Part shown: piece by piece, positions 20,244 through 44,941 of the stretch | How positions within the stretch are numbered: the first letter of the stretch is position 1 | Layout: every line of letters begins with the position of its first letter | From: Chlamydiales bacterium | GTDB lineage: Bacteria; Chlamydiota; Chlamydiia; Chlamydiales; JBDQID01 | Length of the DNA: 64,000 nt | Assembly (NCBI GenBank): GCA_047611865.1 | Contig: JBLFWS010000001.1 | Span: forward strand, 12,408-76,407 | Direction: 5' to 3' | The notes under the pieces: generated by a model | Databases searched by the model: none | Seen by the model: the letters and a program-made list of their open reading frames with translations, nothing else | What the model was told of the DNA's origin: nothing | Translations under genes and position numbers: made by a program

Positions 20244-21308
20244 TTAACACATTTTGAGCATACATCTACCTGTAACTTCACCGGCTTTCATTTGACGAAT
20301 AGCAAGATTGATATCGTTGAAATCAAAATGGTGAGTAATTAAGCCATCCAGTTGTAATTTCCCGGCATTAACAAGATTTATATAACGAGGTATGTCTTTT
20401 TCTGGTTTTGCCTCTCCACCATGTGATCCAGAGAGTATTTTCCCAAAATGTACTGGAAGTGTGTAAAGAGAAGCTTTCTGACCATGCTTTGGTACTCCCA
20501 CAAGAATTGTACGACCTTGAGGTTTTGTCAACTCATATGCCATTTCAATCAAGTCCACATTACCTGTATTTTCTACTATAACATCCGCCCCATCAGAACC
20601 GAGGATATTCATTATTTCCTTTTTGACATCGGTATTTTTGGCGTTCAATGTGTGTGTAGCTCCAAAACTTCTAGCTAATTCAAGTTTCTTATCATACAGA
20701 TCCACCGCAATAATTGGATGAGCTGAAACCATAGAGGCCCCTTGAATAACATTAAGACCGACACCTCCAGCCCCTAATGCAACAATGGATTCTCCGATTT
20801 TAACTTGCGCATCATTCGTAATAACTCCCAAGCCTGTTAACACTGCACAACCCAACAGAGCTGCATGTTGAGAGTCAAAATCCTTAGGTATAGAAGTAAG
20901 TCGATTTTCAGATATTACAGCGTACTCATTAAAAGAAGTGATGGCACCAGCATTTAAACATCTCCCCTTCCATTTATACTTAGGCATCTGCGCATCAATC
21001 CCACTGCCTTTCTTCCAGTGTAAGACTACATGATCTCCCTTCATAACGGTTTGAACTCCAGGACCAATTTCAAGTACCTCTCCAGAACCTTCGTGCCCAA
21101 GAAGGTGAGGTAAGTATTTATCTTCTCCTTTTGCTCCGTCTATTTCCCCAATCTGCGATCCACAAATACTGCTATAAAGAACTTTGACCAATACTTGCCC
21201 ATAAGTTAATGTCGAAGGTAACTGAATAGTATCAACTACAAGATCCTGATGTAATTCTGCCAAAATAGCAGCTTTCATCTCTTTGATGATAATTTGCTTA
21301 TTTGACAT
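20244..21308 (-). CDS. Zn-dependent alcohol dehydrogenase (MDR family)
   Basis: GHEGSGEV catalytic-zinc motif and the GAGGVGLNVIQGA Rossmann loop. Confidence 0.8.
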   Translation of the reverse strand: MSNKQIIIKEMKAAILAELHQDLVVDTIQLPSTLTYGQVLVKVLYSSICGSQIGEIDGAKGEDKYLPHLLGHEGSGEVLEIGPGVQTVMKGDHVVLHWKKGSGIDAQMPKYKWKGRCLNAGAITSFNEYAVISENRLTSIPKDFDSQHAALLGCAVLTGLGVITNDAQVKIGESIVALGAGGVGLNVIQGASMVSAHPIIAVDLYDKKLELARSFGATHTLNAKNTDVKKEIMNILGSDGADVIVENTGNVDLIEMAYELTKPQGRTILVGVPKHGQKASLYTLPVHFGKILSGSHGGEAKPEKDIPRYINLVNAGKLQLDGLITHHFDFNDINLAIRQMKAGEVTGRCMLKMC

Positions 21309-22368
21309 AACTGTCCTTACCTAGAATATTCAGATCGCTCTGAATGGCGTTAAAAAGAAGCCGGGACTTTGCTAACTGCTCCCTTTTCCGAACCTTATCA
21401 GCCACTTTCCCTTGTGCAAAACGACGGCGGGATTCTCCTTCTGGGAGAAAATCATTTAGTACAATAGTGCACCACTTAAGCCTGTAAACAGGAAGTAAAA
21501 GCCTGGCTCTTTGAAGAAGCTTTTCTTTTGTATCAGGAAAGCAGTCTGCTATTGCAGTAGAGAACTTTTTATAATACTTTTCCGACACTGGAACACTTAC
21601 TTGACAGAAAAAATCACAAATCGTCTTTGCTGGGTCATCCCATCCCGCATATTCAAAATCAAAAAACTTTATCTCGTCATCTGCGGTTAAAAGAGCATTA
21701 TGAAATCCAAAGTCCGAAGGCGAAAGGCACCATTCTGAAGTCTCCAATTTCCGGTCTAAGTCTATTTCACAAACCCCCGCAGCTTTTTGTACCCTTTGCT
21801 TAATGACCTCCCATAAATTAGGAATCTCCTTTCGCAAGTGAATAGATACCTCTGATTTCGAGTCACGCTCGTCCACACTTTGTAACCTTTCCACACGCTT
21901 ATCTACACAATGAAAATGCTCATTCATAGTAAAACATGCCTCTGCTGCCCTAGAGAGATGTTGCCCATTTTGAAAAACTCCACCAAAGTTGAGATCTTTA
22001 AAAAACTTTATGGCTTCATCAATTGCATAATCATTTACTTGTTCTTCCTTAAAAGGACGACCATCCACAAACTCGTATATACAAATATCTCGCTTAGTAT
22101 CTTGATCGATCGGTCGAGGAATACTCCGTATTCCTCGATCCCAAGCAAATTGAGCAAAAGAAAACTCTGAGAATTGCCGGTTTCGAGAATCACTCGCATG
22201 TTTATAGAAGCGTTTGATAATTACATTATCTTCCTTACCCTCTACTTTAAACAGCTTGTTATTTTTCCCTCCATCGATACCAATCAATCGATATTCATCC
22301 GATTGTGACCAACCTGCTCTCACAAGAAGGTCATCTACATCTTTCTGAAATGAGTTATGCTTTTTCAT
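21298..22368 (-). CDS. APH/choline-kinase-fold phosphotransferase
   Basis: SDFGFHN (DxxxxN catalytic loop) followed by FFDFEYAGWDDPAKTICDF. I prefer the ATG at 22368, which forms an ATGA overlap with the upstream HAD gene stop, over the track start at 22410. Confidence 0.65.
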   Translation of the reverse strand: MKKHNSFQKDVDDLLVRAGWSQSDEYRLIGIDGGKNNKLFKVEGKEDNVIIKRFYKHASDSRNRQFSEFSFAQFAWDRGIRSIPRPIDQDTKRDICIYEFVDGRPFKEEQVNDYAIDEAIKFFKDLNFGGVFQNGQHLSRAAEACFTMNEHFHCVDKRVERLQSVDERDSKSEVSIHLRKEIPNLWEVIKQRVQKAAGVCEIDLDRKLETSEWCLSPSDFGFHNALLTADDEIKFFDFEYAGWDDPAKTICDFFCQVSVPVSEKYYKKFSTAIADCFPDTKEKLLQRARLLLPVYRLKWCTIVLNDFLPEGESRRRFAQGKVADKVRKREQLAKSRLLFNAIQSDLNILGKDSYVK

Positions 22369-22982
22369 GTTTTTAATAGCCGAAAGAGGCTCTCCTGAAT
22401 GTCTTGCCACGACGATAGTCGCTGGAACCTTTCGTCAGTAACCCTGGGATCTCCTGGGACAAAATTAATACGTTCCACGCCCTCTGGAAAACTCGGGTCA
22501 CCTAAAAACTCGGGAAGATCGTCTATAAAATGAGTGCATTGTAAAGTCTTAATACGCTCTATTTTTTTTTCTTTCGTAAGTTCAAAATATACTTTATTTT
22601 GGGTAAGGCCAATACCTTTTGGATCATAAAATCCTTGTACTCCTAACCATTCTTCCGCTGCCTGATGAAGGTCATATTGTTTACCTAGATAAGGACGCTG
22701 GGTCCTGTGACTGACAATATATACCTCTATATCTCTGTTGTGGCATTCTCGGAAAAAATTTACAACCCCAGGAAAAGGCTTAGCTTCAACCATCCTTTTA
22801 CCATAAATATATCCTTGCATCTCTGTCCAAGTATCTTCTTTATTTCTTTCTCTTAAGAAATCTCGGACCTCTGATTTACAAGCTGGAAATGATGGTGGAA
22901 TTAGGTTTTGCTCCAATGCCACTGTGTGAAAAAGTTGATCGTAGCAGACAATCGTATTGTCGAAGTCGACACCAATTAACAT
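22365..22982 (-). CDS. HAD-superfamily hydrolase (phosphatase-like)
   Basis: N-terminal motif I IGVDFDNTI (DxDxT) and the size of a small capless HAD phosphatase. Confidence 0.6.
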   Translation of the reverse strand: MLIGVDFDNTIVCYDQLFHTVALEQNLIPPSFPACKSEVRDFLRERNKEDTWTEMQGYIYGKRMVEAKPFPGVVNFFRECHNRDIEVYIVSHRTQRPYLGKQYDLHQAAEEWLGVQGFYDPKGIGLTQNKVYFELTKEKKIERIKTLQCTHFIDDLPEFLGDPSFPEGVERINFVPGDPRVTDERFQRLSSWQDIQESLFRLLKT

Positions 22983-23926
22983 GGTATGTGTTTCCTTGCG
23001 TTATCAATCTGATACAGGTTAAGTATTTTCTGTAAAATATCTTCAACAGAAAGAGAAAAGTACTTCCTGGCATAATTTTGTCCTCCCGCATGGTGACAAA
23101 ATTCATCCCTTGTTCCCAGCCGGAGTAACCTCGCTTTTCTTACTGGTTGATCTACAAGCCATTCCGCTACTGCAGAACCAAAGCCTCCGATGAGACTATG
23201 TTCTTCTAGAGTCACAACCAGAGGGTATTGTTCAAAAACTTCCGTTAGAATCTCAATGTCAAGCGGCTTTACAGTGTGGCAACTTAAGACCCTCGTAGAA
23301 ATCCCTCCCGCAGCCAGCCTATCTCCTACTTCGGCTGCTAAAGGTAAAATATTTCCTGTTGCTAGAAGACAGACGTCATCCCCCTCACGAATACTTATCG
23401 CCTTTCCTAAAGTAAACTCTACATTCTGCTTATGAATAAGAGGCTCCCCTTTTTTCCCCAAGCGAATGTACACCGGCCCCTTTAACTTCAAAGCTTCTCT
23501 AAGAGAATGACGAACCTCTATTGCATCCCCAGGACAAATCACTGTCATATTTGGCAAAGCCCGCATTAGAGCAATATCTTCACAGGAATGATGTGTGGCT
23601 CCAAGCCCTGCATAAGACAATCCAGCTCCAACTCCAACAATGACTGCTGGCAAGTTATGATAACACAGATCTACACGAATCTGCTCAAGACAGCGAGTCG
23701 TAGCAAATGGCGTTATCGTATAGGTTATGGGGTGTAAGCCAGAAAGAGCCATTCCTGCAGCGACACCTGTCATATTAGCTTCCGCAACTCCACAGTTGTA
23801 GAAGCGATTGGGGAATTTTTTTTTGTAGTCATCAAAAAGTCTGTTACCAATATCTCCAGACAATAAAACGACCTTATCATTTTCTGAAGCAATTGCAGTA
23901 AGCTCTGAGGCAAATGAATTTCTCAT
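22976..23926 (-). CDS. Transketolase, C-terminal (pyrimidine-binding) subunit
   Basis: Typical split-transketolase B-subunit sequence (GVAEANMTGVAAGMA..., EDIALMRALPNM...). Confidence 0.85.
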   Translation of the reverse strand: MRNSFASELTAIASENDKVVLLSGDIGNRLFDDYKKKFPNRFYNCGVAEANMTGVAAGMALSGLHPITYTITPFATTRCLEQIRVDLCYHNLPAVIVGVGAGLSYAGLGATHHSCEDIALMRALPNMTVICPGDAIEVRHSLREALKLKGPVYIRLGKKGEPLIHKQNVEFTLGKAISIREGDDVCLLATGNILPLAAEVGDRLAAGGISTRVLSCHTVKPLDIEILTEVFEQYPLVVTLEEHSLIGGFGSAVAEWLVDQPVRKARLLRLGTRDEFCHHAGGQNYARKYFSLSVEDILQKILNLYQIDNARKHIPC

Positions 23927-23928
23927 AT

Positions 23929-24771
23929 TTACACCAATCCCAGCTCTTTACGAGCAGCAATAATTTCATCCTCATTCGGAATACGATAGTGCCAATTATT
24001 ATCGTCCTCCATAAAAGATACCCCTTTGCCTTTGATCGTGTGAGCTATTATAGCTGTCGGCTTCCCTTTCTCTATCGCATGAGGGTTTACAGCCTTAAGG
24101 ATCTCTTCTATGCTATGCCCATCAACTTCCCTGGTACTCCAGCCAAATGCTTCCCATTTGTCCTTTAGAGGGTCCAATGCTAAAGTAGCATTACTACGAC
24201 CCGTTGCTTGCCATTTATTGTAGTCGACGATTGCAGTAATATTATCAAGATTATGTGCAGGAGCCATCATTGCAGCCTCCCAACTAGAGCCTTCGTTGCA
24301 CTCACCATCGCTCATCACAACAAATACTTTAGTTTTTCTATTAAGAATTTTTGCAGCCATCGCTTTGCCGACACCAATAGACAATCCATGACCTAAGGAA
24401 CCTGTTGCGGCCTCTATTCCTGGAACACAATAAGGCCCAGGATGCTCTGCAAGGGAACTTCCTGGTTTATTATACGTTGCGAGTATTTCTTCTGAAAAAA
24501 AGCCCCTTTCGCAAAGTGTCACGTATAATGCCAACGCTGCATGACCTTTGCTAAGGATGAGTCTGTCACGTTCAGGGGAATTTGGCTTCTTGGGGTCAAT
24601 CTGAAGAACCCTCCAATACAAAGCTACAAGGATATCAATACATGATAACGAAGAACCCAGGTGGGGTGTTTTTGCCAAATGAGACATCTCAATCGTCTTA
24701 TACCTTACCTGTCTACAGATCTGATCAAGTTCCTTAATTCTTTCCTCTTTCATTGGTACCAAGCCCCACAT
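23929..24771 (-). CDS. Transketolase, N-terminal (TPP-binding) subunit
   Basis: HLGSSLS, GSLGHGLSIGVG and the MSDGECNEGSSWEA TPP motif. An alternative start is Met7 at 24753. Confidence 0.85.
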   Translation of the reverse strand: MWGLVPMKEERIKELDQICRQVRYKTIEMSHLAKTPHLGSSLSCIDILVALYWRVLQIDPKKPNSPERDRLILSKGHAALALYVTLCERGFFSEEILATYNKPGSSLAEHPGPYCVPGIEAATGSLGHGLSIGVGKAMAAKILNRKTKVFVVMSDGECNEGSSWEAAMMAPAHNLDNITAIVDYNKWQATGRSNATLALDPLKDKWEAFGWSTREVDGHSIEEILKAVNPHAIEKGKPTAIIAHTIKGKGVSFMEDDNNWHYRIPNEDEIIAARKELGLV

Positions 24772-24786
24772 TTTCCCACATAGAAG

Positions 24787-24953
24787 TAGGTCGTGTATTA
24801 AAATTACGAAACACTGCTTTTGGAGCCTTTATCCACACTTTTGAATCGCACCCAACTCACCTACTTGTCTAAGTATGGAGAGTTGTGAGCGATCCAAAAT
24901 TATAAAAAAATGCCCTCAAAATCAGACATTCCCTAATTTTAATACACGACCTA
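24787..24953. mobile_element. Palindromic MITE-like element, family B (about 167 bp)
   Basis: 20-bp perfect TIRs TAGGTCGTGTATTAAAATTA / TAATTTTAATACACGACCTA. An internal second inverted repeat is TTTTGAATCGCACCCAACTC / GAGTTGTGAGCGATCCAAAA. Single copy in the window, and no clear TSD. Confidence 0.5.
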
Positions 24954-25020
24954 GACCTTACATGCTATTGTCTAAATAGTTTTTTTTCAAGTCGGGGCTC
25001 TAGTTTTAAAATATCTAGAA

Positions 25021-25752
25021 TCACTCTGCGATAAACCATCCGTAGTCTCCGGTATAACCCACTACTCCAAAAAGCTTTTCCCAATCATCAACATGTAATG
25101 CTGTTTCGGCTGTTAGCACCCACTTTCTCAGGTTTTCTTTCTCTTGATCATTTCTCCAAGCATCAACTGTAATATAACTTTTTCCACGTGAAACGCGTTG
25201 AATTTCCTTCAAAGCATCCTTCAAAGGCTCAAGGTGCAGGTTATGAATTGTGGTCAAAGAAAGTACTAAATCAAAGCTATTATCCGCATACGGTAGTTTT
25301 TCTGCGCTGCACACTTCTAAGTGAGGCTTGACAGTTTCCATTGAACAATCAATGGCATATCGACTTACATCTATTCCTCTTACCGTACTTTTAGGCATAC
25401 ATTGTTTGAAGTCATGAAGAAGAAATCCTTTTGCACAACCGATATCGAGTATAGCCGCATCCTCGCTCAAGCCGTAATGCTCCTTCATCCGTTCAACCAC
25501 CTGCACCCATCTGCCGTCGTAATGATAGCCTCCATAGCCATACAGACGGTCCCCATCAAAGAATTCTTTTCCGTATTGTTTTGCAACTTTGATGACCTCA
25601 TCCGTTTTTTCTCTTGCTCTTTTGTCATAGTCACGTTTTACAGCTGCTTGTTTATCAGCAAAATTTAATTCAGCCATCATCTCCTCATAATTTAATTTAG
25701 TATAGTCAACTATAAAAGCAGGTAAGATCGAACAAAGCTTCGATTTCTCCAC
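25021..25752 (-). CDS. Class I SAM-dependent methyltransferase
   Basis: ILDIGCAKGFLL (motif I), FDLVLSLTTIHNL (motif II/III). GTG start at 25752. Confidence 0.8.
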   Translation of the reverse strand: MEKSKLCSILPAFIVDYTKLNYEEMMAELNFADKQAAVKRDYDKRAREKTDEVIKVAKQYGKEFFDGDRLYGYGGYHYDGRWVQVVERMKEHYGLSEDAAILDIGCAKGFLLHDFKQCMPKSTVRGIDVSRYAIDCSMETVKPHLEVCSAEKLPYADNSFDLVLSLTTIHNLHLEPLKDALKEIQRVSRGKSYITVDAWRNDQEKENLRKWVLTAETALHVDDWEKLFGVVGYTGDYGWFIAE

Positions 25753-25767
25753 TGAAAGACCAGAATC

Positions 25768-25977: not shown

Positions 25978-25984
25978 ACTAGAA

Positions 25985-26902
25985 TCAATAAACTTTTTTA
26001 TCTAATAGCGAAGAGCAGAATTCTATTAGCATGCGCTCAATGCCTGGAGTCGATTTTTCCCCTAGGGCTCCAAGCATTTTTATGTTGCACAAGTTCAGCT
26101 TCTTTTCCCTTGGAATAGGCTGGCTATCAATACTCCCCTTTTTAACAAGTGAGCTATCATAGCCAAAAATTTCCGCTACTTTCAAAGCAAATTGATACTT
26201 CGTGAGAATCTCGGATCCTACAACGTGATAGATTCCACCTGCATTCTTTTCTATAAGAGCCAAAACAATCCTTACGAGTTCTTTTACGTATAGAGGAGCA
26301 AATACAACATCGGCAAATGCCGAATATTCCCTTCCCTGCTGTAAACTCTCAGCAATATTTTCAGCAAAACTCTTTTTCTGACTAAACAGATATTTACCAA
26401 ATGTATTAAAGCGTACAATCAAAGCGTCAGGGAGCATTCCGCTACAGCATTGCTCCCCTTTTAATTTTGTTCTTCCATACTGATTCAATGGAAAAGGCTC
26501 TTCTTTTTCAAGATAGTCTCCTCTTTTCCCATCAAATACGGCATCTGTTGAAAGATAGACCATTTTAGCCTGACACTCTTTTGCCAAATCTACTAAATTA
26601 CGAGTTCCCTGAACATTCACTTTGTATGAAAGCTCTGGTTTGCTTTCACAAAAAGCAATGTTCGCAATCGCAGCACAGTGAATAATTAGTTTTGGCTCAA
26701 GAGTACTTAAGCTAAGTATCGCCTCTCGATCTGTAATATCAACTTGCTTTACAATACAGTTTTGAAAACGACAAGGATGTGAATTATATAGTCCATAAAG
26801 ACCCGTTCTTCCTTGATTTTCCAAGGCATGAACAAGATGAGCGCCAACCAATCCACTTGCACCCGTTACAATAATATTTCCCTGAAAACTATCTCTTTCC
26901 AC
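25985..26902 (-). CDS. RmlD-like NDP-4-keto-6-deoxy-sugar reductase (SDR)
   Basis: VTGASGLVGAHLV Rossmann loop and YGRTKLKGE (the RmlD-type YxxxK block). Confidence 0.7.
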   Translation of the reverse strand: MERDSFQGNIIVTGASGLVGAHLVHALENQGRTGLYGLYNSHPCRFQNCIVKQVDITDREAILSLSTLEPKLIIHCAAIANIAFCESKPELSYKVNVQGTRNLVDLAKECQAKMVYLSTDAVFDGKRGDYLEKEEPFPLNQYGRTKLKGEQCCSGMLPDALIVRFNTFGKYLFSQKKSFAENIAESLQQGREYSAFADVVFAPLYVKELVRIVLALIEKNAGGIYHVVGSEILTKYQFALKVAEIFGYDSSLVKKGSIDSQPIPREKKLNLCNIKMLGALGEKSTPGIERMLIEFCSSLLDKKVY

Positions 26903-27557
26903 AAGCTAAAACCATTATGTAATGACACATTGGGTGAAAACCCGTGTGAACAACTTCATCATTCATTCCGAAGACAAATGCATTTTTAAAGTATTTCAAC
27001 AACAAGCTTTGCAACCGTTCTGCATCATATAGATTAATATGACCTCTTTTGCTCATTTCTGACGCATATTCCTGAGCTGTAATATTAGGCGTCCCTATCA
27101 GACAAAAACCGTCATCGTCGAGGTGGTCAACCATTGTTTGAACGAACATATCTTCTTCTTCTCTAGGAACATGTTCAATTACATCAAGGTTCACTACAGC
27201 GTCGAATTTTCCTAAATTCATATCAAAAATATCACCATGGTGAAAGTTTAGATCGTATTTAGTTTTATTCTCGAGGTGCTCCTTCGCATAAGCAATTTGC
27301 TTCTCATCAAAATCAACACCTACAATTGAGTGTCCTTCTTCGGCTAGAATCAGAGCTCCTATTCCTTCTCCACATCCCATCTCCAATACTCTCGCCTTTT
27401 TTTTCGACTGAAGCATTTTAGATACAAATTTATAACGAGAAAAAACAAAGACCAAATGCCGAGGAGTTTCTAAAGCTTGATAGGCAAAACATGGTCCCAG
27501 CTCTAATTTTGGATCTCCAATATAGTCCACAACACTATCCCAATGCTTGTCACTCAT
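26889..27557 (-). CDS. Class I SAM-dependent methyltransferase
   Basis: VLEMGCGEGIGALILA (motif I), VGVDFD, FDAVVNLDVIEHV. Confidence 0.8.
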   Translation of the reverse strand: MSDKHWDSVVDYIGDPKLELGPCFAYQALETPRHLVFVFSRYKFVSKMLQSKKKARVLEMGCGEGIGALILAEEGHSIVGVDFDEKQIAYAKEHLENKTKYDLNFHHGDIFDMNLGKFDAVVNLDVIEHVPREEEDMFVQTMVDHLDDDGFCLIGTPNITAQEYASEMSKRGHINLYDAERLQSLLLKYFKNAFVFGMNDEVVHTGFHPMCHYIMVLACGKR

Positions 27558-27569
27558 AATTTGTCTCCT

Positions 27570-28568
27570 CTAAGGCTTATGAATATATTCTAAGGGCTGC
27601 CTTTGAATTGATTTCCAATTTTTTTCAACCCAGCCAACCATCTCACCAACACCTTCCTCAATTCCAATCTTGGGCTTCCATCCAAGCTCCTGCCGAGCTT
27701 TAGAAGAATCAATCACATAAGCAGCATCTTGCCCTAGTCTTTCTTTTACAATACGCGTAGACGAGTTGAAATCATATCTCATTGCGGAACAAATGTGTTT
27801 AACAAGCTCATTCACTTTAATTCCTTGATCGGGAGATAAGTGGTAGATTTCTCCTACTCTTCCATTCTCCATTATGGCTAATTCTCCAATAGAAACATCA
27901 CGAATATGAATATAAGACTTTATAGCCTCTCCTCCTCCATGCAGCTCTATTTTCCGATCCGATTTCAAATATATCGCTGATCGTGGAATAATCTTAAATA
28001 GTTGTTGACGAACACCATAAACATTCGTAGCTCTCACAAAAGTCACAGGGAAATCAAAGTTTTTATAGTATGTTAAAAGAGAAAGGTCACCTCCAGCCTT
28101 TGATGCTGCATAGGGAGTACTAGGATTTAATGGTGCCTCTTCCTTAACGTTACCTGAGCAAGCCCCGTAGACTTCTGGTGAAGATATATGTACATACTTC
28201 TTTAAGTAGCTTTTACCTTTAAGCATATGAGTAAGCTTCGTTACAGCTACAACATTTGTTTGATACCAATGCTCTGGGTGCTCCCAACTTGGGGCAACCT
28301 CACTCTGCGCTGCAAAATTTACTATATATTCAGGTTCAAACTCATCCAAAAGACTAGATAATTTATCTATCTCATGATTTAAATCTATCTGATGATACCG
28401 AAAGTCTTCGGAAGAACTAAGGCTTTCTGCCAGAAAAAGCTTATTTTTCATTGCAGATCGACTAACACCCAATACATTAAATCTTTCTTCCTTCAACAAA
28501 AGGTCTATAAAATCGATAGCAGAAAAACTATTACTTCCAATTACACAAACTCTATTTTTCCCTGTCAT
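27570..28568 (-). CDS. NDP-sugar 4,6-dehydratase-like extended SDR (RmlB/GMD-like)
   Basis: SSPEVYG...PSTPYAASKAGGDLSLLTY...RATNVYG pattern of 4,6-dehydratases. Confidence 0.7.
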   Translation of the reverse strand: MTGKNRVCVIGSNSFSAIDFIDLLLKEERFNVLGVSRSAMKNKLFLAESLSSSEDFRYHQIDLNHEIDKLSSLLDEFEPEYIVNFAAQSEVAPSWEHPEHWYQTNVVAVTKLTHMLKGKSYLKKYVHISSPEVYGACSGNVKEEAPLNPSTPYAASKAGGDLSLLTYYKNFDFPVTFVRATNVYGVRQQLFKIIPRSAIYLKSDRKIELHGGGEAIKSYIHIRDVSIGELAIMENGRVGEIYHLSPDQGIKVNELVKHICSAMRYDFNSSTRIVKERLGQDAAYVIDSSKARQELGWKPKIGIEEGVGEMVGWVEKNWKSIQRQPLEYIHKP

Positions 28569-28604
28569 ATCACGACCTTAATAATTTCAAAGTTACAAAA
28601 ACCT

Positions 28605-29600
28605 TTAAAGATTTAATTCCTGCATTGTTTTTATATTATAGTATTTTTTGTCCTCAAAAGCCTTCGGAACCCTTCCTTGATTGAATGCCTTAAGGAGTGA
28701 TTCTATAGCATCACCGATACTGTATCTTGGACAAAACCCCAATTCTTCTTTAATTTTTGCGGATGAAATATGATAAGAACGCAAATCGTCAGTAGGGGTC
28801 GTCTCCGTAAGCACATCATCACCTACACGACTTTGAACCATTTCTGCAATTTCTTTTATCGAATGGTTTTCATACCCCGCATTATAAACCTTGCCGTCAA
28901 TCAAACTTGAAGGAAGCTCAAGAGTCCTAACATAGAGGTCCGACATATCTTCAACATGAATGTTAGGACGAAGTTGCTCGCCACCAAAAACCTTAATTTT
29001 CCGCTTATTTACAGCATGATTTGTCAAAATATTCACTGTAAGATCCAGCCTCAACCTCGGAGCATACCCACACACTGTTGCTGGCCTAATGATTAGTGTC
29101 GAGAACCCCGTTGTCTTTTTCTCCAATAAGACATCTTCACACATAGCCTTATACTTCGAATAATCCGTCAAAGGTTGCAAAGAGAGTTCTTCGGTAACAT
29201 TGAGTTCTGATTTGATGCCATACACACTCGAAGAAGAAGCGTAAATAAAACGCGAGACACCGCTTTCTTTTGATATATCCACTAATGGACCAAAAGCGTC
29301 ATAATTGATAGCACGTCCCAATTCTGGATTCAATTCAAAGCTTGGGTCGTTGGAAATACAGGCTAGATGGATTACCGCCTCACAACCCGGAAGTATATTC
29401 TGAAGCAAACCTTGATCTCGAATATCCCCATTTATTAATTCAAGTCTTTCATGACCCTTTACCTGATCAAGGGCTTCCACTCCAAAGAAAAAGAGATCTA
29501 AAACTTTGACTCGATACCCTTTATCCAAAAGTTTCGGAATCAATGCAGAACCTACATATCCCGCACCTCCCGTAACCAAAACTGATTTAATTGTATCCAT
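28605..29600 (-). CDS. NAD-dependent NDP-sugar epimerase/dehydratase (extended SDR)
   Basis: VTGGAGYVGSALIPKLL Rossmann loop and the YSKYKAMCE catalytic YxxxK. Confidence 0.7.
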   Translation of the reverse strand: MDTIKSVLVTGGAGYVGSALIPKLLDKGYRVKVLDLFFFGVEALDQVKGHERLELINGDIRDQGLLQNILPGCEAVIHLACISNDPSFELNPELGRAINYDAFGPLVDISKESGVSRFIYASSSSVYGIKSELNVTEELSLQPLTDYSKYKAMCEDVLLEKKTTGFSTLIIRPATVCGYAPRLRLDLTVNILTNHAVNKRKIKVFGGEQLRPNIHVEDMSDLYVRTLELPSSLIDGKVYNAGYENHSIKEIAEMVQSRVGDDVLTETTPTDDLRSYHISSAKIKEELGFCPRYSIGDAIESLLKAFNQGRVPKAFEDKKYYNIKTMQELNL

Positions 29601-29629
29601 TTCACAGGCCCTTCAAGCTACGTTTACCT

Positions 29630-30226
29630 CTATTTCACGGCAAGACGATCTGTTAAATAATGACAAAAGACAGAATGCGACAATTCCACCATCCCATATG
29701 ATGAAGATGGCATATAGAAATTTAACTCGCCGATCTGACGGAGGACATTATCAGGAGAAAATCCTGAAAAAGTAATTACTTTCATTCCTTTCTCATTGGC
29801 CATCTCAACTGCTTTTATTATATTTTCAGACTGGCCCGAGCTACTAACCGCTATAAGTAAGTCCCCTTTTGTCCCATGAAGAGATATTTGCCAGGCAAAA
29901 GCCACATCATAGCCTTCATCATTCGTCAAGGCTGTTAAAAGGCTTTGCTCTGTGCAAACCATGGCTGGAATTTCATCACATTTACATAGATCATTACTCA
30001 CGTGAGCTACGAGAGCTGAGCTTCCCCCGTTCCCAACCAAAATAACCTTTTTTCCTTTAGATTTTACATGTCGTAACATTACGACCGCTCTATCACTTGC
30101 TTGGTCTATTGGAAGCTCAACATCCATATCATCAGTTGCAATGCATGATTCCAGAACATCTAACAAGTTCCTGCCATAGATCTTTACTTTTTTCTCTTTT
30201 TTCGTCGCCGCACTAACCATGTTCAC
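29630..30226 (-). CDS. gmhA: SIS-domain sedoheptulose-7-phosphate isomerase-like protein
   Basis: VGNGGSSALVAHVSNDL, TALTNDEGYD, AVSSSGQSENIIKA and GMKVITFSG match the GmhA block order. Confidence 0.7.
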   Translation of the reverse strand: MNMVSAATKKEKKVKIYGRNLLDVLESCIATDDMDVELPIDQASDRAVVMLRHVKSKGKKVILVGNGGSSALVAHVSNDLCKCDEIPAMVCTEQSLLTALTNDEGYDVAFAWQISLHGTKGDLLIAVSSSGQSENIIKAVEMANEKGMKVITFSGFSPDNVLRQIGELNFYMPSSSYGMVELSHSVFCHYLTDRLAVK

Positions 30227-30232
30227 CTACAA

Positions 30233-31789
30233 TTACTTTAGACAATGTTCAAGGGATCTCAGTAAAGCATCTCTATTAACTGAAGACTTATTTCCTACCG
30301 TTTGCACAGCTTGGAAACCCACAGCGTTTCCAATCAACCCCACAACTTGAAGGGGAATGTTTTGCTGCGAGCAAAGCGAGGCTACAGCCAATACGGAATC
30401 ACCCGCCCCTACTCTATCAACAGTTTTACCCATAAATGCAGGAACTTCAACAAAGCCTTCCTTCGGACCGTAGCAGATTACGCCCTCCACTCCTCTTGTC
30501 ACGATGATTTTAGATCCCCCTAGCTTTTCTGAGACTTCTCTAATAATATCTTTTAATGGCCGCCTCTTACTTCGGACATCGATGCGTATTTCATTTTCAG
30601 AAATACTCACGAAATCTGCTCGTGGATACTTGGAGATCGTATTAAATGCCTGATTCCCAGCATTAACCTGTGTATTTACCGCTAGGAACTTAGCTTTCTC
30701 AGCTAGAAGATTGACAGCTTCCGGACTCATCATCCCATGTCCATAGTCTGTTACAATAACAACATCGTAATCCGCAACTATCTCATCCAATTTGCTACAC
30801 AAGGCACTAGAATCATCCGGACTTCCCTCATCATTATCCATCATGTAAACTTCAAAAAGTTTTTGAAGAGGGTAGCTTTCTAAAAACCGTCGTTTTACAA
30901 TCGTTGTTTTACCTTTCGCCATTTTAAGAAAATGTGAAGTTACTTTTGGATCTAGTCTTTCACCGATAAAATCTTCATAGGACTTCTCTGATCCAAGGAA
31001 AGTCACGACATCTACATGTTGAGAAAAACCTGCAACGTGGTTTGCTACAGCAAGAACCCCTCCAATAAAAGTTTCTTTTCTTTCGTAGCAAGCTGCCAAA
31101 ATGGGATCTTTTCCAGGCTTGCCCATTGTTCGACAAAAGTGATAATCATCAATAATCGCATCACCAACCAAAAGAACTTTCAAGGATTTCAATTTCTCAA
31201 TATAATTTTCTATGCCTTGGTAAGTATAACTTTTCGCAAATTCTTTAATAAATGCACTCATTTCAGAAGAGAAAATTGGCAGGTATTTGTTGATCAAACT
31301 AGAAGAGGAAAAGGTAATTTCTTCGGTATAGAAAATTTCCCCACCAACAGATTCAACAGCCTCCTTCTCCAGAACAATTCCGCCTGTTTTATCTTGTGTA
31401 GCCTCTTTATAGTCCCTCCCCTTTGCATAAAAATCAGGCTGAAGCAACTTGATTGTTTCCACAGCATTTGGCCATTGATTAATAGAAACATAATCAACAA
31501 ATCCTAACGCTGCCATAGCTTCGGCACGAAGATTCTCTTCGAATGCTGGACGATTAGGCCCTTTATTGACGTAACAATCAGGAGTTAACGTAACAACAAG
31601 AATATCTCCTGGCTGTTTTGCTTTTTTTAGATGCCGGATATGCCCCACATGCAATAGGTCAAAAACACCATGACAAAGAACGATCTTTTTCCCCTCTTTT
31701 TTAAGGGAAAAAAGAATATCCTTCAGCTCAGTAAGCTGCTTTATACCCCCTGCCGAATCCATGCTTTCATTTGACACCAAATTATCCAT
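30233..31789 (-). CDS. Bifunctional nucleotidyltransferase / PfkB sugar kinase (HldE-like, reversed domain order)
   Basis: The N-terminus carries CHGVFDLLHVGHIRHL (HxGH cytidylyl/adenylyltransferase motif) and FSSSSLI. The C-terminus carries the PfkB kinase motifs VLLVGDAIIDDY and DRVGAGDS. Confidence 0.7.
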   Translation of the reverse strand: MDNLVSNESMDSAGGIKQLTELKDILFSLKKEGKKIVLCHGVFDLLHVGHIRHLKKAKQPGDILVVTLTPDCYVNKGPNRPAFEENLRAEAMAALGFVDYVSINQWPNAVETIKLLQPDFYAKGRDYKEATQDKTGGIVLEKEAVESVGGEIFYTEEITFSSSSLINKYLPIFSSEMSAFIKEFAKSYTYQGIENYIEKLKSLKVLLVGDAIIDDYHFCRTMGKPGKDPILAACYERKETFIGGVLAVANHVAGFSQHVDVVTFLGSEKSYEDFIGERLDPKVTSHFLKMAKGKTTIVKRRFLESYPLQKLFEVYMMDNDEGSPDDSSALCSKLDEIVADYDVVIVTDYGHGMMSPEAVNLLAEKAKFLAVNTQVNAGNQAFNTISKYPRADFVSISENEIRIDVRSKRRPLKDIIREVSEKLGGSKIIVTRGVEGVICYGPKEGFVEVPAFMGKTVDRVGAGDSVLAVASLCSQQNIPLQVVGLIGNAVGFQAVQTVGNKSSVNRDALLRSLEHCLK

Positions 31790-31927
31790 ACCTTAAATCC
31801 TTGAATTCTCTGGCGATGGGTATAAGATAGTTCTCTTCTTGATTATGAATAAACCATTTTTTAATAATAGTCCGCAAGTTTTATTCTCAAGTTTTCTTTA
31901 TTGTCCACCTTGCTAAGAGAATCATTT

Positions 31928-32923
31928 CTACTCAAGAAAAGCAAACCAATCTTTAGTCGCTGCAGATATTCCCTTTTCGTCCCAAACGGGAGCTGTTTTC
32001 CACTGCTCTATCCTTTCAAGCATTTCCTGTACTCCTATCTCAAAAGAAACTGAGGGATTCCAGGCTAATGTTTTTTGTATCTTTTTGATGTCCGCAAAAG
32101 TACTGTCAGGCTCCCCTGGGCGTTTAGGAATATGCACAACATCTCCCCCAAGAAGAGAAACAAGGTGGTTGATAGAATAAGTCCCTCCTGACCCTACATT
32201 TAAAGCTTCTCCAACGACATCAGATTCTGCTGCTCTAACAAAAGCCCTAACCACATCATCTACATAAGTAAAATCACGAGTTTGCTGACCGTCTCCAACA
32301 ACAGTTAGTGGTTTATTTGCGAGCTTCTGAGCAAGAAATACCCCAAAGACAGCCCCGTAGGTCCCCGAGGTCCTCGAACGTGGTCCGAAAACATTAAAAA
32401 GTCTCAGTGAAACAACTGGAAGTTTATATATCTTATGCCAATGAAAAGCATATTGCTCTCCTATATACTTAGTAAAAGCGTAAGGATACATAGGTTGAAT
32501 CGCGGCTGTTTCTGAAGTTGGAAAAGATTCAGGAATTCCGTAACAAGAAGAGGAAGCCGTATAAACAAATCGCTTTACCTTTGCTTGCCTGGAAGCCTCC
32601 AAAACCGCCACTGTACCATCAACATTTGCCTTATGATAATCTAAAGGCATCTGAATCGAAGGTACGATGTCCGCCAAGGCCGCTAAGTGAAAAACATAGT
32701 CTATACCAACGAAGTAATCTTTAATGCCCATTAAATCACTAACATCTACCTGATGAAACTGAAGGTTTTCTGATAACTGGGGAAGGTTTTCTCTCTTTCC
32801 TGTTGCAAGATTATCTAAAACAGTAACATTCGCTTCTTGTTTCAATAAACTTTCAACGAGATGACTCCCTATGAAACCCGCCCCACCAGTAACCAATACT
32901 CTCTTTCCACGCAAATCTTTCAT
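31928..32923 (-). CDS. NAD-dependent NDP-sugar epimerase/decarboxylase-like extended SDR
   Basis: VTGGAGFIGSHLVESLL and YAFTKYIGEQY (YxxxK). UXS/WbpP-like layout. First gene of the glycan locus. Confidence 0.75.
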   Translation of the reverse strand: MKDLRGKRVLVTGGAGFIGSHLVESLLKQEANVTVLDNLATGKRENLPQLSENLQFHQVDVSDLMGIKDYFVGIDYVFHLAALADIVPSIQMPLDYHKANVDGTVAVLEASRQAKVKRFVYTASSSCYGIPESFPTSETAAIQPMYPYAFTKYIGEQYAFHWHKIYKLPVVSLRLFNVFGPRSRTSGTYGAVFGVFLAQKLANKPLTVVGDGQQTRDFTYVDDVVRAFVRAAESDVVGEALNVGSGGTYSINHLVSLLGGDVVHIPKRPGEPDSTFADIKKIQKTLAWNPSVSFEIGVQEMLERIEQWKTAPVWDEKGISAATKDWFAFLE

Positions 32924-44926: not shown

Positions 44927-44941
44927 TATCGTCTCCCACCA

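What the first reader, a model, noticed from the sequence alone, without database searches (positions are those of the whole stretch)
20244..32923. Heptose-type nucleotide-sugar modification pathway on one strand, directly feeding the paralog array
**What is seen.** Thirteen same-strand genes with short gaps or overlaps run from 32923 down to 20244 and continue into the four paralogs. The whole unit spans 22.5 kb and 17 genes.

**Gene content.**
- gmhA-like SIS isomerase.
- HldE-like kinase/nucleotidyltransferase.
- A 4,6-dehydratase-like SDR, an RmlD-like 4-reductase and two further extended SDRs.
- Two class I SAM methyltransferases.
- A split transketolase.
- A HAD phosphatase, an APH/choline-kinase-fold kinase and a Zn-ADH.

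**Established knowledge.** GmhA plus HldE make NDP-heptose from sedoheptulose-7-P. Dehydratase/reductase/epimerase sets then generate 6-deoxy-heptoses, as in capsule heptose pathways.

**Inference.** The locus builds a methylated deoxy-heptose (or similar) donor. The kinase, HAD and ADH trio may also supply a phosphorylated or alcohol substituent. No flippase, polymerase or ABC exporter lies in the window, so export and attachment are unexplained. The divergently transcribed MFS fusion at 33227 is the only adjacent transporter.
Basis: partly seen in the sequence, partly recalled or inferred. Interest (0 to 1): 0.7.

Follow-up and report, generated by a model that had tools for sequence, protein, structure and literature searches.

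The report
Conserved heptose-sugar gene cluster, odd transketolase
These 13 genes are a chlamydial copy of a gene set found in more than 15 bacterial phyla that very probably makes a modified, nucleotide-activated seven-carbon sugar, using a rearranged activating enzyme and an atypical transketolase whose job and product are still unknown.

Summary
Three corrections apply. The "HldE-like" enzyme has the reverse domain order (nucleotidyltransferase first, PfkB kinase second). The split transketolase lacks two canonical substrate-binding residues. The HAD is not the GmhB equivalent.

The set is not an ad hoc island. Nearly the same genes co-occur on one strand in more than 100 loci from over 15 phyla. 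A canonical GmhB phosphatase sits next to the kinase/SIS genes in 13 of these loci, which supports a heptose pathway.

The transketolase, HAD, APH kinase, Zn-ADH and MT2 form one tight module. In other lineages a pyruvate-dehydrogenase-E1-like pair plus aminotransferases takes its place. Both variants follow an SDR whose best solved relative I recall as the heptose C4-dehydrogenase Cj1427.

My inference: NDP-heptose is oxidised at C4, receives a C2 unit from the ThDP enzyme, then is reduced and methylated. The product is unknown.

Linkage to the sulfotransferase-like/glycosyltransferase-like paralogs recurs in a second chlamydial genome, and probably a third. I rate it a new variant of a known kind, of moderate interest.

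The parts
31928..32923 (-). SDR1: extended SDR of the GalE / WbpP / UDP-GlcA 4-epimerase type, first gene of the cluster
   Evidence: Pfam Epimerase 2.8e-62. Best PDB relatives are UDP-hexose 4-epimerases. The HldD model scores only 121 bits against a 274.6 cut-off. GGAGFIG and YxxxK motifs are conserved. A homologue lies in 63 of 80 homologous loci, mostly next to the NTase-PfkB gene, at up to 70% identity.
30233..31789 (-). NTase-PfkB fusion: a 'reverse HldE' with cytidylyltransferase-like domain at residues 29-168 and PfkB sugar kinase at 197-506
   Evidence: NCBIfam rfaE_dom_II matches residues 29-168 and rfaE_dom_I matches 197-506, both below cut-off. PDB relatives are HldA 4e84 for the kinase and ECT/TagD for the NTase. 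HxGH and GAGD motifs are conserved. More than 6000 homologues share this order.
29630..30226 (-). GmhA-like SIS isomerase
   Evidence: Best NCBIfam and PDB matches are phosphoheptose isomerases (84 bits against a 276 cut-off; 5lu7/2x3y at 3e-20). The SxSGxS phosphate loop is kept. The metal/catalytic positions read H, D (Glu in GmhA), E (Gln in GmhA), H across the family.
28605..29600 (-). SDR2: extended SDR, candidate NDP-heptose C4-dehydrogenase
   Evidence: Best solved relative is 6vo6/6vo8 at 7.8e-43, well ahead of the next hit at 4e-28. I recall this entry as C. jejuni Cj1427. The Cj1427 reaction is described in PMC10680097. A homologue lies in 62 of 80 loci, usually just before the ThDP enzyme genes.
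27570..28568 (-). SDR3: RmlB-like (4,6-dehydratase-like) SDR with atypical motifs
   Evidence: TIGR01181 scores 199 bits against a 365 cut-off. The family-wide glycine motif is G-S-N-S-F-S-G/A, and it has S-(S/T)-P-E-V-Y-G where I recall T-D-E in RmlB.
26889..27557 (-). MT1: class I SAM methyltransferase (UbiG-like scores)
   Evidence: Pfam Methyltransf_23/25/11. Present in 16 of 80 loci, in several next to the RmlD-like gene.
25985..26902 (-). RmlD-like SDR, a putative 4-ketoreductase
   Evidence: RmlD_sub_bind 1.2e-51; TIGR01214 scores 174.5 bits against a 224 cut-off. It is the least conserved member: 15 of 80 loci at about 27% identity.
25021..25752 (-). MT2: class I SAM methyltransferase, part of the transketolase module (true start probably near 25680)
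   Evidence: Pfam Methyltransf_11/25. Relatives are 218 aa. It co-occurs with the HAD-like gene in 25 of 25 long loci.
23929..24771 (-). Transketolase-like N-terminal (ThDP-binding) subunit
   Evidence: Transketolase_N 3.2e-42. The (G/S)DG...N ThDP/metal motif is visible in the sequence.
22976..23926 (-). Transketolase-like C-terminal (pyrimidine-binding) subunit with a non-canonical acceptor site
   Evidence: Best PDB hit is the C. hydrogenoformans split transketolase 6yaj at 8e-62. The canonical H..GEDG.SHQ is G..AGLG.THH here. All 33 cluster-linked homologues likewise lack the His (E. coli H461) and the Asp (E. coli D469). R358, S385 and R520 equivalents are kept (specificity residues in PMC7661550).
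22365..22982 (-). Capped HAD-superfamily phosphatase-like protein, not GmhB-type
   Evidence: No Pfam or PDB sequence hit. Invariant positions are D6, D8, T10, S91, K140, D154, D155. The AF2 model has pLDDT 94.7, and the Foldseek top hits are 5'(3')-deoxyribonucleotidase-like and other capped HAD phosphatases. It co-occurs with canonical GmhB in the same clusters.
21298..22410 (-). APH/choline-kinase-fold kinase, consistently paired with the HAD-like gene
   Evidence: Pfam Choline_kinase 34 bits and APH 32.5 bits. APH matches 22 of 24 family members. The catalytic D..HN and DFEY motifs are invariant. It accompanies the HAD-like gene in 25 of 25 long loci, directly downstream.
20244..21308 (-). 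Zn-dependent medium-chain alcohol dehydrogenase (class III-like)
   Evidence: ADH_N plus ADH_zinc_N. Best NCBIfam scores are to class III, mycothiol-dependent and NDMA-dependent ADHs, all below cut-off. Present in 22 of 25 HAD-seeded loci.
10413..20142 (-). Four tandem paralogs (809-814 aa, 44-46% identical): N-terminal sulfotransferase-like domain plus a C-terminal Glyco_trans_1_2 module; putative consumers of the sugar
   Evidence: Pfam and alignment. The top 13 Foldseek hits for residues 1-250 are PAPS sulfotransferases, best E 5.6e-4, from a model of only pLDDT 64.6. The family is rare: 47 representatives at E<1e-30 among 1.8 billion. Homologues lie 2.5 kb downstream of the same module in L085, and beside NYN-Ham1-GreA in L169.
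33227..34981 (+). Neighbour, not part of the pathway: MFS-acyltransferase fusion (LplT/Aas-like)
   Evidence: NF006386 acyl-ACP-phospholipid O-acyltransferase 1.9e-119; LplT 2.6e-34. Syntenic in L088 and a tblastn-only trace with no called gene in L087. Absent from the 80 non-chlamydial loci.

Best explanation
The 13 genes are a chlamydial copy of a widespread, uncharacterised gene cluster that makes a tailored nucleotide-activated heptose.

**Early steps (supported by homology and context).**
- The GmhA-like SIS protein isomerises sedoheptulose-7-P to a heptose-7-P.
- The PfkB domain of the reverse-order fusion phosphorylates C1.
- A 7-phosphatase removes the handle. It is canonical GmhB in other phyla; none is encoded in this window.
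- The N-terminal nucleotidyltransferase domain then makes NDP-heptose.

**Tailoring (inferred).**
- SDR2 oxidises C4.
- The transketolase-like ThDP enzyme has lost the residues that read the acceptor's 2-hydroxyl and one phosphate contact. It attaches a two-carbon ketol unit to the keto or aldehyde sugar intermediate.
- In other lineages a pyruvate-dehydrogenase-E1-like pair at the same position would add an acetyl unit.
- The Zn-ADH and RmlD-like SDR reduce the new carbonyls, and MT1 and MT2 methylate.
- The APH kinase and capped HAD phosphatase add and remove a transient phosphate somewhere in this module. The step is unknown.

**Use.** The product is most likely used by the glycosyltransferase-like part of the four downstream paralogs. 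Their sulfotransferase-like domain may add sulfate.
For: **Conserved unit.**
- In 80 loci seeded with the NTase-PfkB protein, from Chloroflexota, Acidobacteriota, Verrucomicrobiota, Planctomycetota, Nitrospirota, Desulfobacterota, Elusimicrobiota, Omnitrophota and others, homologues of the window genes lie on one strand. Counts: SDR1 63, SDR2 62, SDR3 47, TktN/C 46/45, SIS 43, MT2 41, ADH 37, HAD 36, APH 35.
- L010 and L015 have all 13 genes in another order.
- In 25 long loci seeded independently with the HAD: APH 25, MT2 25, Tkt 23, ADH 22, SDR2 20, NTase-PfkB 16.

**Heptose assignment.**
- Best family and PDB matches are to GmhA, HldA/HldE halves and 6vo6.
- Canonical GmhB lies within 13 homologous loci, next to NTase-PfkB or SIS in those inspected. 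The L010 copy scores 183 bits against a 178 cut-off.

**ThDP enzyme as a tailoring step.**
- All cluster-linked TktC lack the H461 and D469 equivalents that the active split transketolase 6YAJ and human TKT keep.
- Transketolase and E1alpha/beta modules were close to mutually exclusive in the ORF-based count: 1 of 44 loci carried both. Both lie downstream of the core genes.
- Where NTase-PfkB is missing, sugar C-methyltransferases and SDR dehydratases, which are NDP-keto-sugar enzymes, lie directly upstream of the transketolase.
- Precedent: the ThDP enzymes YerE and AviB1/B2 add C2 units to NDP-4-keto sugars, followed by a reductase (PMC9306805, PMC4753412).

**HAD is not GmhB.** It has a capped fold and co-occurs with GmhB.

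**Paralog linkage.** Same arrangement in L085. L169 and L087 come from one sample.
Against: - No enzyme of this cluster, in any organism, has been characterised. The product is unknown, and no literature on the cluster was found.
- Transketolases are not known to use ketone or nucleotide-sugar acceptors.
- Three of the four acceptor and phosphate-contact residues compared (R358, S385, R520 equivalents) are kept. The substrate could therefore be a free sugar phosphate, and the module could act before activation.
- All family scores are below curated cut-offs.
- The identification of 6vo6 as Cj1427 is from memory. That enzyme uses GDP-alpha-heptose, whereas HldE-type enzymes make the beta anomer.
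- No 7-phosphatase of the GmhB type is present in the window or in L085, L087 or L088.
- The paralog link rests on adjacency in two or three related genomes only. The GT-like part of the model is of low confidence.
Confidence: 0.5

Rival explanations
1. The cluster makes a methylated 6-deoxy-heptose by 4,6-dehydration and 4-reduction. The split transketolase only boosts sedoheptulose-7-P supply. The HAD is the GmhB-type 7-phosphatase. The kinase and ADH provide a separate substituent.
For: - SDR3 is RmlB-like and the RmlD-like SDR is present.
- No GmhB gene is in the window, so the HAD could fill that step here.
- The transketolase keeps the ThDP motif and the R358, S385 and R520 equivalents.
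Against: - Every cluster-linked TktC lacks the H461 and D469 equivalents.
- Free-living hosts would not need an extra housekeeping transketolase, yet the gene is tightly linked to HAD, APH, ADH and MT2.
- The HAD co-occurs with canonical GmhB in the same clusters and has a capped, nucleotidase-like fold.
- SDR3 has SPE in place of the dehydratase TDE motif and is missing from many loci.
Confidence: 0.2
2. Two products. The SDR1, NTase-PfkB, SIS, SDR2, SDR3 and RmlD genes make an NDP-heptose. The transketolase, ADH, APH, HAD and MT2 module separately builds a small methylated or phosphorylated alcohol or ketol, which is attached to the glycan as a substituent.
For: - The module moves as a block relative to the core.
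- In some loci it occurs with no NTase-PfkB within 7-10 kb.
- The APH fold includes choline and ethanolamine kinases.
- The NTase domain resembles ethanolamine-phosphate and glycerol-phosphate cytidylyltransferases.
Against: - A kinase paired with a phosphatase argues for a transient phosphate, not a phospho-substituent.
- No dedicated phosphotransferase is conserved with the module.
- The module is embedded among NDP-keto-sugar enzymes.
- It alternates with an E1-like pair plus aminotransferases, which is typical of branched-sugar pathways.
Confidence: 0.2
3. Front-end role. The APH kinase, Zn-ADH and transketolase-like enzyme build an unusual phosphorylated ketose, such as a modified heptulose or an octulose, from a smaller alcohol or aldose. 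The SIS protein and NTase-PfkB then isomerise and activate it. The HAD removes the phosphate handle. The sugar would not be an ordinary manno-heptose.
For: - Three of the four acceptor and phosphate-contact residues compared are kept in the transketolase C subunit.
- A kinase and a phosphatase bracketing the pathway mirror the HldE/GmhB logic.
- The SIS family has systematic changes at catalytic positions (Glu to Asp, Gln to Glu).
- From my own knowledge, the lincomycin octose pathway uses an analogous scheme.
Against: - Clusters of the E1 type, and Waddlia, have NTase-PfkB without the module.
- GmhB co-occurs with the HAD, so the core does not depend on the module.
Confidence: 0.1

Closest known systems
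ADP-L-glycero-beta-D-manno-heptose pathway (GmhA, HldE, GmhB, HldD) of Gram-negative LPS core synthesis
   Same: - A SIS isomerase closest to GmhA.
- A PfkB kinase and a cytidylyltransferase-fold NTase closest to the two HldE domains and fused in one protein.
- An SDR directly upstream, where an HldD-like epimerase could sit.
- Canonical GmhB inside homologous clusters of other phyla.
   Different: - The domain order of the fusion is reversed.
- All scores are far below equivalog cut-offs.
- The SIS catalytic Glu and Gln are replaced by Asp and Glu.
- SDR1 resembles GalE/WbpP more than HldD.
- No GmhB is present in this window.
- Nine further tailoring genes follow.
Campylobacter jejuni capsule GDP-heptose modification pathways (Cj1427 C4-dehydrogenase, C3/C5 epimerases, C4 reductases; PMC10680097)
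   Same: - An SDR whose best solved relative I recall as Cj1427, which makes the 4-keto-heptose nucleotide from which all variants derive.
- SDR-type reductases follow.
   Different: - No HddA (GHMP kinase) or HddC activation genes.
- No cupin epimerases.
- No GMD-type dehydratase.
- A ThDP enzyme, kinase, phosphatase, Zn-ADH and methyltransferases are present instead.
ThDP-dependent branched-chain sugar pathways (YerE/YerF for yersiniose; AviB1/AviB2 and Pau11/Pau12 for C4-acetyl branches)
   Same: An enzyme that generates a 4-keto nucleotide sugar is followed by a ThDP-dependent C-C bond-forming enzyme and a ketoreductase. In the sister clusters the ThDP enzyme is an E1alpha/beta-like pair, as I recall AviB1/B2 to be.
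   Different: - Here the ThDP enzyme is of the transketolase family. It would transfer a dihydroxyethyl rather than a hydroxyethyl/acetyl unit.
- No transketolase is known to act on a nucleotide sugar or a ketone.
- The sugar is a heptose, not a 3,6-dideoxyhexose.
- This resemblance is to a mechanism, not a tested membership.
Split-gene transketolase of Carboxydothermus hydrogenoformans (PDB 6YAJ/6YAK; PMC7661550)
   Same: Two-subunit architecture, 8e-62 match for the C subunit, ThDP/metal motif, and R358, S385 and R520 equivalents kept.
   Different: His (E. coli H461) is Gly and Asp (E. coli D469) is Leu in the window protein, and no cluster-linked homologue keeps them. The gene is embedded in a sugar-tailoring operon rather than in central metabolism.

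Membership tests
HldE (bifunctional heptose-7-P kinase / heptose-1-P adenylyltransferase) | N-terminal PfkB kinase followed by C-terminal cytidylyltransferase-fold domain; reaches NCBIfam NF008454 cut-off (521 bits) | tested here: not met
   The order is NTase (29-168) then PfkB (197-506), with 143 bits for NF008454. The same reversed order is seen in all full-length homologues checked.
HldE (bifunctional heptose-7-P kinase / heptose-1-P adenylyltransferase) | Catalytic motifs of both domains: HxGH and (I/F)S(S/T)(S/T) in the NTase; GAGD anion hole in the PfkB kinase | tested here: met
   CHGVFDLLHVGH, TFSSSSLI and DRVGAGDS are conserved across 69 family members.
HldE (bifunctional heptose-7-P kinase / heptose-1-P adenylyltransferase) | Acts on D-glycero-D-manno-heptose phosphates; uses ATP for nucleotidyl transfer | not testable with these tools
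   Only context is available: GmhB and the GmhA-like gene lie adjacent in 13 loci. The identity of the nucleotide is unknown.
GmhA (sedoheptulose-7-P isomerase) | SIS fold with SxSGxS phosphate loop and catalytic/metal residues His, Glu, Gln, His; equivalog score | tested here: inconclusive
   Best hits are GmhA models and structures, but at 84.5 bits against a 276 cut-off. DiaA is next at 63 bits. The phosphate loop is kept. Glu is replaced by Asp and Gln by Glu across the family.
GmhB (heptose-1,7-bisphosphate 7-phosphatase) | Capless HAD-IIIA phosphatase with the FLDRDG motif | tested here: not met
   The window HAD-like protein has a cap of about 80 aa and a nucleotidase-like fold. There is no tblastn hit for GmhB anywhere in the window. 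True GmhB co-occurs with the HAD-like gene in other loci.
Canonical transketolase (EC 2.2.1.1) | ThDP/metal-binding (G/S)DG...N motif and cofactor-activating Glu | tested here: met
   SDGECNEG...DYN in TktN and CGVAEANM in TktC. The alignment to 6YAJ scores 8e-62.
Canonical transketolase (EC 2.2.1.1) | Acceptor-site residues (E. coli numbering) R358, S385, H461, D469, R520 | tested here: not met
   R358, S385 and R520 equivalents are present. H461 is Gly and D469 is Leu in the window protein, and all 33 cluster-linked homologues lack both. 6YAJ and human TKT keep them (residue roles and my own knowledge).
Cj1427-type NDP-heptose C4-dehydrogenase | [quoted passage not shown] | tested here: inconclusive
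   The best PDB hit is 6vo6/6vo8 at 7.8e-43, and the next is at 4e-28. Identification of that entry as Cj1427 is from memory. Activity cannot be tested here.
NDP-hexose/heptose 4,6-dehydratase (RmlB/GMD/DmhA) | GxxGxxG NAD site; catalytic Thr-Asp-Glu (RmlB) or Ser-Glu (GMD) plus YxxxK | tested here: inconclusive
   SDR3 scores 199 bits against 365 for TIGR01181. Its motifs are GSNSFS(G/A) and S(S/T)PEVYG, so the Asp is lost and the Glu kept. YxxxK is present.
HAD-superfamily phosphatase | Motifs I-IV (DxDxT, S/T, K, DD) on a Rossmannoid fold | tested here: met
   Invariant D6, D8, T10, S91, K140, D154, D155. The model has pLDDT 94.7, with 68 PDB matches at E<=0.001; the 50 best listed are nearly all HAD-superfamily proteins.
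PAPS-dependent sulfotransferase (N-terminal domain of the paralogs) | Sulfotransferase fold with 5'-PSB (xRSGTT/PKSGTT) and 3'-PB motifs | tested here: inconclusive
   Pfam Sulfotransfer_1 hits are weak (3.5e-7 to 3.7e-4) in three of four paralogs. A VRCGATW motif is present. The Foldseek top 13 hits are sulfotransferases, but the best E is 5.6e-4 from a model of pLDDT 64.6.

The most novel reading that the evidence does not exclude
A transketolase-family ThDP enzyme forms a C-C bond on a heptose intermediate at the nucleotide-sugar stage. The result would be a C-branched or chain-extended (C9) methylated sugar, made by a pathway present in more than 15 phyla and never described. In one chlamydial clade the product would go to a very rare family of sulfotransferase-glycosyltransferase fusion proteins. 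That would imply a sulfated heptose-containing glycoconjugate in a phylum that, to my knowledge, is not known for complex glycans.
Probability: 0.25. Interest if true: 0.8.

Novelty: new variant of a known kind. Interest (0 to 1): 0.55.

Why it matters
**If the core inference is right.** A large, cross-phylum gene cluster (thousands of homologues) would encode an unrecognised route to a tailored heptose. It has three enzymological oddities:
- a permuted HldE;
- a transketolase subfamily with a rebuilt acceptor site;
- an obligatory kinase/phosphatase pair of new families.

**What it would enable.**
- It gives a concrete, testable entry point into unknown cell-surface or flagellar glycans of poorly studied phyla such as Chloroflexota, Acidobacteriota, Verrucomicrobiota, Planctomycetota and Nitrospirota.
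- It could extend ThDP biocatalysis to nucleotide sugars.

**For Chlamydiae.** It points to an accessory glycoconjugate, possibly sulfated, with no export machinery nearby. That raises the question of what is being glycosylated.

**If the ordinary reading is right.** It is simply another methylated deoxy-heptose locus.

Tried and rejected
**Literature.** Searches for the gene combination found nothing describing this cluster. The terms covered transketolase with phosphoheptose isomerase or heptose, O-antigen, chlamydial heptose and "split transketolase". The two Cj1427 structure and function papers are not held, so the identity of 6vo6 could not be verified.

**Sequence searches that gave little.**
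- Single-sequence and profile searches of the HAD-like protein against PDB found nothing.
- The same searches for the APH-like kinase gave only a weak match to corramycin phosphotransferase.

**Operon signals.** Promoter and terminator scans are at background level and say nothing about operon structure. Rfam found no RNA element between 9 and 38 kb.

**The two intergenic gaps around MT2.** I tested whether they are remnants of the TylF and PhyH genes present in L088. No similarity was found.

**The 393-aa Glyco_trans_1_2 protein at 3982-5163.** I tested whether it is a fragment-like paralog of the 810-aa proteins. There is no significant similarity.

**Ideas rejected.**
- The MFS fusion as exporter: it is LplT/Aas-like and syntenic housekeeping.
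- The HAD as GmhB.
- The transketolase as a plain sedoheptulose-7-P supplier: judged less likely, not excluded.

**Idea not pursued.** The APH kinase might make a 3'-phospho-NDP-sugar read by the sulfotransferase-like domain. The module is conserved in phyla that lack the paralogs.

**Technical caveat.** My ORF-clustering counts miss some genes that tblastn finds, so the tblastn tables are the ones to trust.

Full report
**1. What is in the sequence.**

Thirteen ORFs lie on the minus strand between 32923 and 20244. Most junctions are overlaps or gaps of 2-138 bp. Two gaps of about 230-250 bp flank the second methyltransferase. After 101 bp the four 809-814-aa paralogs follow (20142 to 10413).

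Pfam and NCBIfam give the following, in transcription order:
- SDR1, a GalE/WbpP-like extended SDR.
- A fusion of a cytidylyltransferase-fold domain (residues 29-168) and a PfkB kinase (197-506).
- A SIS protein closest to GmhA.
- SDR2.
- SDR3, RmlB-like.
- MT1.
- An RmlD-like SDR.
- MT2.
- Transketolase N and C halves.
- A 205-aa protein with no Pfam hit.
- An APH/choline-kinase-like kinase.
- A Zn-dependent alcohol dehydrogenase.

None of these reaches an NCBIfam equivalog cut-off. The divergent MFS fusion at 33227 is an LplT/Aas-type lysophospholipid transporter-acyltransferase. No flippase, polymerase or ABC exporter is seen among the window ORFs of 150 aa or more that were scanned.

The window comes from a 110-kb metagenome contig. 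Sources label its proteins "Chlamydiales bacterium".

**2. Corrections to the gene list.**

The "HldE-like" protein has the reverse domain order of HldE. The rfaE domain II model matches the N-terminus and the domain I model matches the C-terminus. Both sets of catalytic motifs are intact.

The 205-aa protein is a HAD-superfamily member. Motifs DxDxT, S/T, K and DD are invariant in 21 homologues.

The transketolase C subunit aligns at 8e-62 with the active split transketolase of Carboxydothermus hydrogenoformans. Where that enzyme and human transketolase read H..GEDG.SHQ, the window protein reads G..AGLG.THH. It and all 33 cluster-linked homologues thus lack the equivalents of E. coli His461 and Asp469. 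Equivalents of R358, S385 and R520 remain. R358, S385, D469 and R520 are the positions known to set acceptor specificity (PMC7661550). The role of His461 is from my own knowledge.

SDR3 has a family-wide unusual glycine motif (GSNSFSG/A). It also has SPE where, by my recollection, RmlB has TDE.

**3. The set is a conserved unit found far beyond Chlamydiae.**

The NTase-PfkB fusion has more than 6000 homologues with the same architecture, about 55% identical across phyla.

In 80 loci from one-genome-per-species contigs, homologues of the window genes lie on the same strand around it. Counts are SDR1 63, SDR2 62, SDR3 47, TktN/C 46/45, SIS 43, MT2 41, Zn-ADH 37, HAD 36, APH 35, MT1 16 and RmlD-like 15. 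Many of these contigs are truncated.

The hosts are labelled Chloroflexota, Acidobacteriota, Verrucomicrobiota, Planctomycetota, Nitrospirota, Desulfobacterota, Elusimicrobiota, Omnitrophota and others. Some MAG labels look unreliable.

Two Dehalococcoidia loci (L010, L015) have all 13 genes in a different order. The paralogs and the MFS gene are absent from all 80 loci.

A second, independent seed gave the same picture. Among 25 long metagenome loci found with the HAD-like protein, APH is present in 25, MT2 in 25, transketolase in 23, Zn-ADH in 22, SDR2 in 20 and NTase-PfkB in 16.

Identities to other phyla are as high as those to the closest chlamydial relatives. SDR1 reaches 70% and TktC 64-67% across phyla, against 60-70% for the chlamydial relatives. 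This points to strong constraint and lateral spread of the cluster.

**4. Evidence that the early steps make a nucleotide-activated heptose.**

- The SIS protein matches GmhA models and structures best. Its phosphate loop is intact, and it has conservative changes at the catalytic and metal positions.
- The kinase half matches only heptose kinases in the PDB (HldA). Its best family model is rfaE domain I.
- Thirteen homologous loci carry a canonical GmhB phosphatase, placed beside the NTase-PfkB or SIS gene in those inspected. The L010 copy passes the equivalog cut-off at 183 against 178 bits.
- SDR2's best solved relative by a wide margin is 6vo6/6vo8 (7.8e-43). I recall this entry as C. jejuni Cj1427. 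[quoted passage not shown] I could not verify the PDB code in a held paper.
- In a Waddlia MAG the fusion stands alone among housekeeping genes. It therefore appears to work without the rest of the cluster.

That is not met: they are nearest the heptose families, though as distinct sister groups. No formal tree was made.

**5. The transketolase, HAD, APH kinase, Zn-ADH and MT2 form one module, and the HAD is not GmhB.**

The HAD and APH genes lie side by side in every long locus examined. Several clusters carry both a true GmhB and the HAD-like gene (L005, L010, L013, L020, L021). The HAD fold is capped, whereas GmhB is to my knowledge capless. No GmhB gene is found in the window or in the related chlamydial contigs. 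The 7-phosphatase step here is therefore unassigned.

In other lineages the transketolase module is replaced. A pair resembling pyruvate dehydrogenase E1 alpha and beta takes its place, with one or two DegT aminotransferases and sometimes a radical SAM/SPASM protein. In the ORF-based count only one of 44 long loci showed both types, and the E1 type never had the HAD or APH genes.

Both kinds of ThDP enzyme lie downstream of the core genes, often directly after SDR2. Where no NTase-PfkB is nearby, the genes directly upstream of the transketolase are sugar C-methyltransferases, SDR dehydratases and glycosyltransferases. These are enzymes that act on NDP-keto sugars.

**6. Proposed mechanism, with the status of each step.**

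Supported by homology and context:
- Sedoheptulose-7-P is isomerised by SIS.
- The PfkB domain phosphorylates C1.
- A 7-phosphatase acts.
- The NTase domain makes NDP-heptose.

Supported by best-hit homology only:
- SDR2 makes the 4-keto sugar.

Inferred from gene order, the altered acceptor site, the alternation with E1-like pairs and precedent:
- The transketolase-like enzyme transfers a two-carbon ketol unit onto the sugar intermediate.
- The Zn-ADH and/or the RmlD-like SDR then reduce it, and MT1 and MT2 methylate it.
- The precedent is that the ThDP enzymes YerE and AviB1/AviB2 add C2 units to NDP-4-keto sugars and are followed by reductases (PMC9306805; PMC4753412).

Unknown:
- The step served by the APH kinase and HAD phosphatase. 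A transient phosphate is the simplest reading.
- The role of SDR1, which could be a 4- or 6-epimerase.
- Whether SDR3 dehydrates.
- The nucleotide and the final structure.

The main weakness is that no transketolase is known to use a ketone or a nucleotide sugar. Three of the four acceptor and phosphate-contact residues compared are also kept. A role on free sugar phosphates before activation therefore remains possible.

**7. Link to the paralogs.**

The paralogs combine three regions:
- an N-terminal domain of about 250 aa with sulfotransferase-like sequence motifs and fold;
- a middle region;
- a C-terminal Glyco_trans_1_2 module.

The evidence is weak Pfam hits, a VRCGATW motif, and 13 sulfotransferases at the top of the Foldseek list. 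The best of those has E 5.6e-4, and the model has only pLDDT 64.6.

The family is very rare. A word-based search found 6 proteins. A full HMM scan of 1.8 billion representatives found 47 at E<1e-30, of which about half a dozen are full length.

In a second chlamydial contig (L085), two homologues lie 2.5 kb downstream of MT2-TktN-TktC-HAD-APH-ADH. They are followed by the same NYN, Ham1 and long-GreA genes as in the window.

In a third sample, the cluster contig (L087) ends in the APH gene. A separate contig (L169) begins inside a paralog and runs into NYN-Ham1-GreA.

Two relatives (L087, L088) keep the window's exact order over the 12 genes their contigs reach. L088 adds a TylF-type O-methyltransferase and a PhyH-type dioxygenase.

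The linkage is thus conserved within this chlamydial clade. That supports, but does not prove, that the paralogs use the sugar. Outside the clade the cluster is followed by unrelated glycosyltransferases.

**8. Comparison with known systems and verdict.**

The locus works like an ADP-heptose pathway joined to a branched-sugar tailoring pathway. It is not a member of the HldE, GmhB or canonical transketolase families as they are defined. Domain order, cap structure and acceptor residues were each tested and not met.

I found no description of this cluster in the held literature.

I rate it a new variant of a known kind. The early chemistry is ordinary. The ThDP step, the permuted activating enzyme, the kinase/phosphatase pair and the wide distribution are not.

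Interest is moderate (0.55) because the key step is inferred and the product is unknown.

Noticed in passing
window 3982-5163 (-): A stand-alone 393-aa Glyco_trans_1_2 protein. A 392-aa counterpart sits at the syntenic position in L085 (16818-17996). It shares only the Pfam family with the 810-aa paralogs and has no significant pairwise similarity to them.
   Followed up: partly
window 34991-36748 (-): A 585-aa protein with C-terminal ankyrin repeats and a weak Peptidase_C58 (YopT-like cysteine protease) match at residues 147-296. It looks like a candidate secreted effector next to the cluster.
   Followed up: no
window 24772-25020 and 25753-25984: Two unusually long intergenic gaps flank MT2. 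Relative L088 has TylF-type O-methyltransferase and PhyH-type dioxygenase genes between MT2 and TktN. No remnant of either was detected in the window gaps, and no Rfam hit.
   Followed up: yes
L025, L028, L040, L044, L006, L011, L033 (loci from other phyla): A sister cluster type. The same NTase-PfkB and SDR2 core is followed by a pyruvate-dehydrogenase-E1alpha/beta-like pair, usually with one or two DegT aminotransferases, and in some (L025, L028) a radical SAM/SPASM protein. The transketolase module is mostly absent (L011 also carries a divergent pair).
   Followed up: partly
L048 1-9000 (Nitrospirales MAG): The homologous cluster is preceded by FliW, an NTP_transferase, a TylC3-like sugar C-methyltransferase, a NUDIX protein and a GHMP kinase. 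This hints at a flagellin-glycosylation locus with a second activation route.
   Followed up: no
L009 9986-11509 (Waddlia MAG): The reverse-order NTase-PfkB gene stands alone between ThrRS, ParA and UPF0137 on one side and TatC on the other, with none of the other cluster genes. In some Chlamydiae it may therefore be the general heptose-activating enzyme.
   Followed up: partly
L087 about 1900-3300: Upstream of SDR1, the LplT/Aas-like MFS-acyltransferase gene seen in the window and L088 is matched only by a tblastn hit (63% identity). Only small ORFs of 49-79 aa are called there, so it may be a pseudogene.
   Followed up: no
window 38099-46267 (-): A block of respiratory genes in a chlamydial MAG: cbb3-type oxidase subunits (COX1, FixO), a 1367-aa multihaem cytochrome c protein and a cytochrome b. 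NqrA lies at 2508-3884.
   Followed up: no
window 27570-28568 (-) and homologues: The RmlB-like SDR3 family carries a conserved non-standard dinucleotide-binding motif, G-S-N-S-F-S-G/A, instead of GxxGxxG.
   Followed up: partly
L170 4105-6516 (NCBI GCA_024449895.1 contig): A full-length (803 aa) member of the rare paralog family sits beside UPF0242 and PIN-domain genes, with no cluster genes in the 4 kb upstream. I did not identify what kind of genome the assembly is.
   Followed up: no
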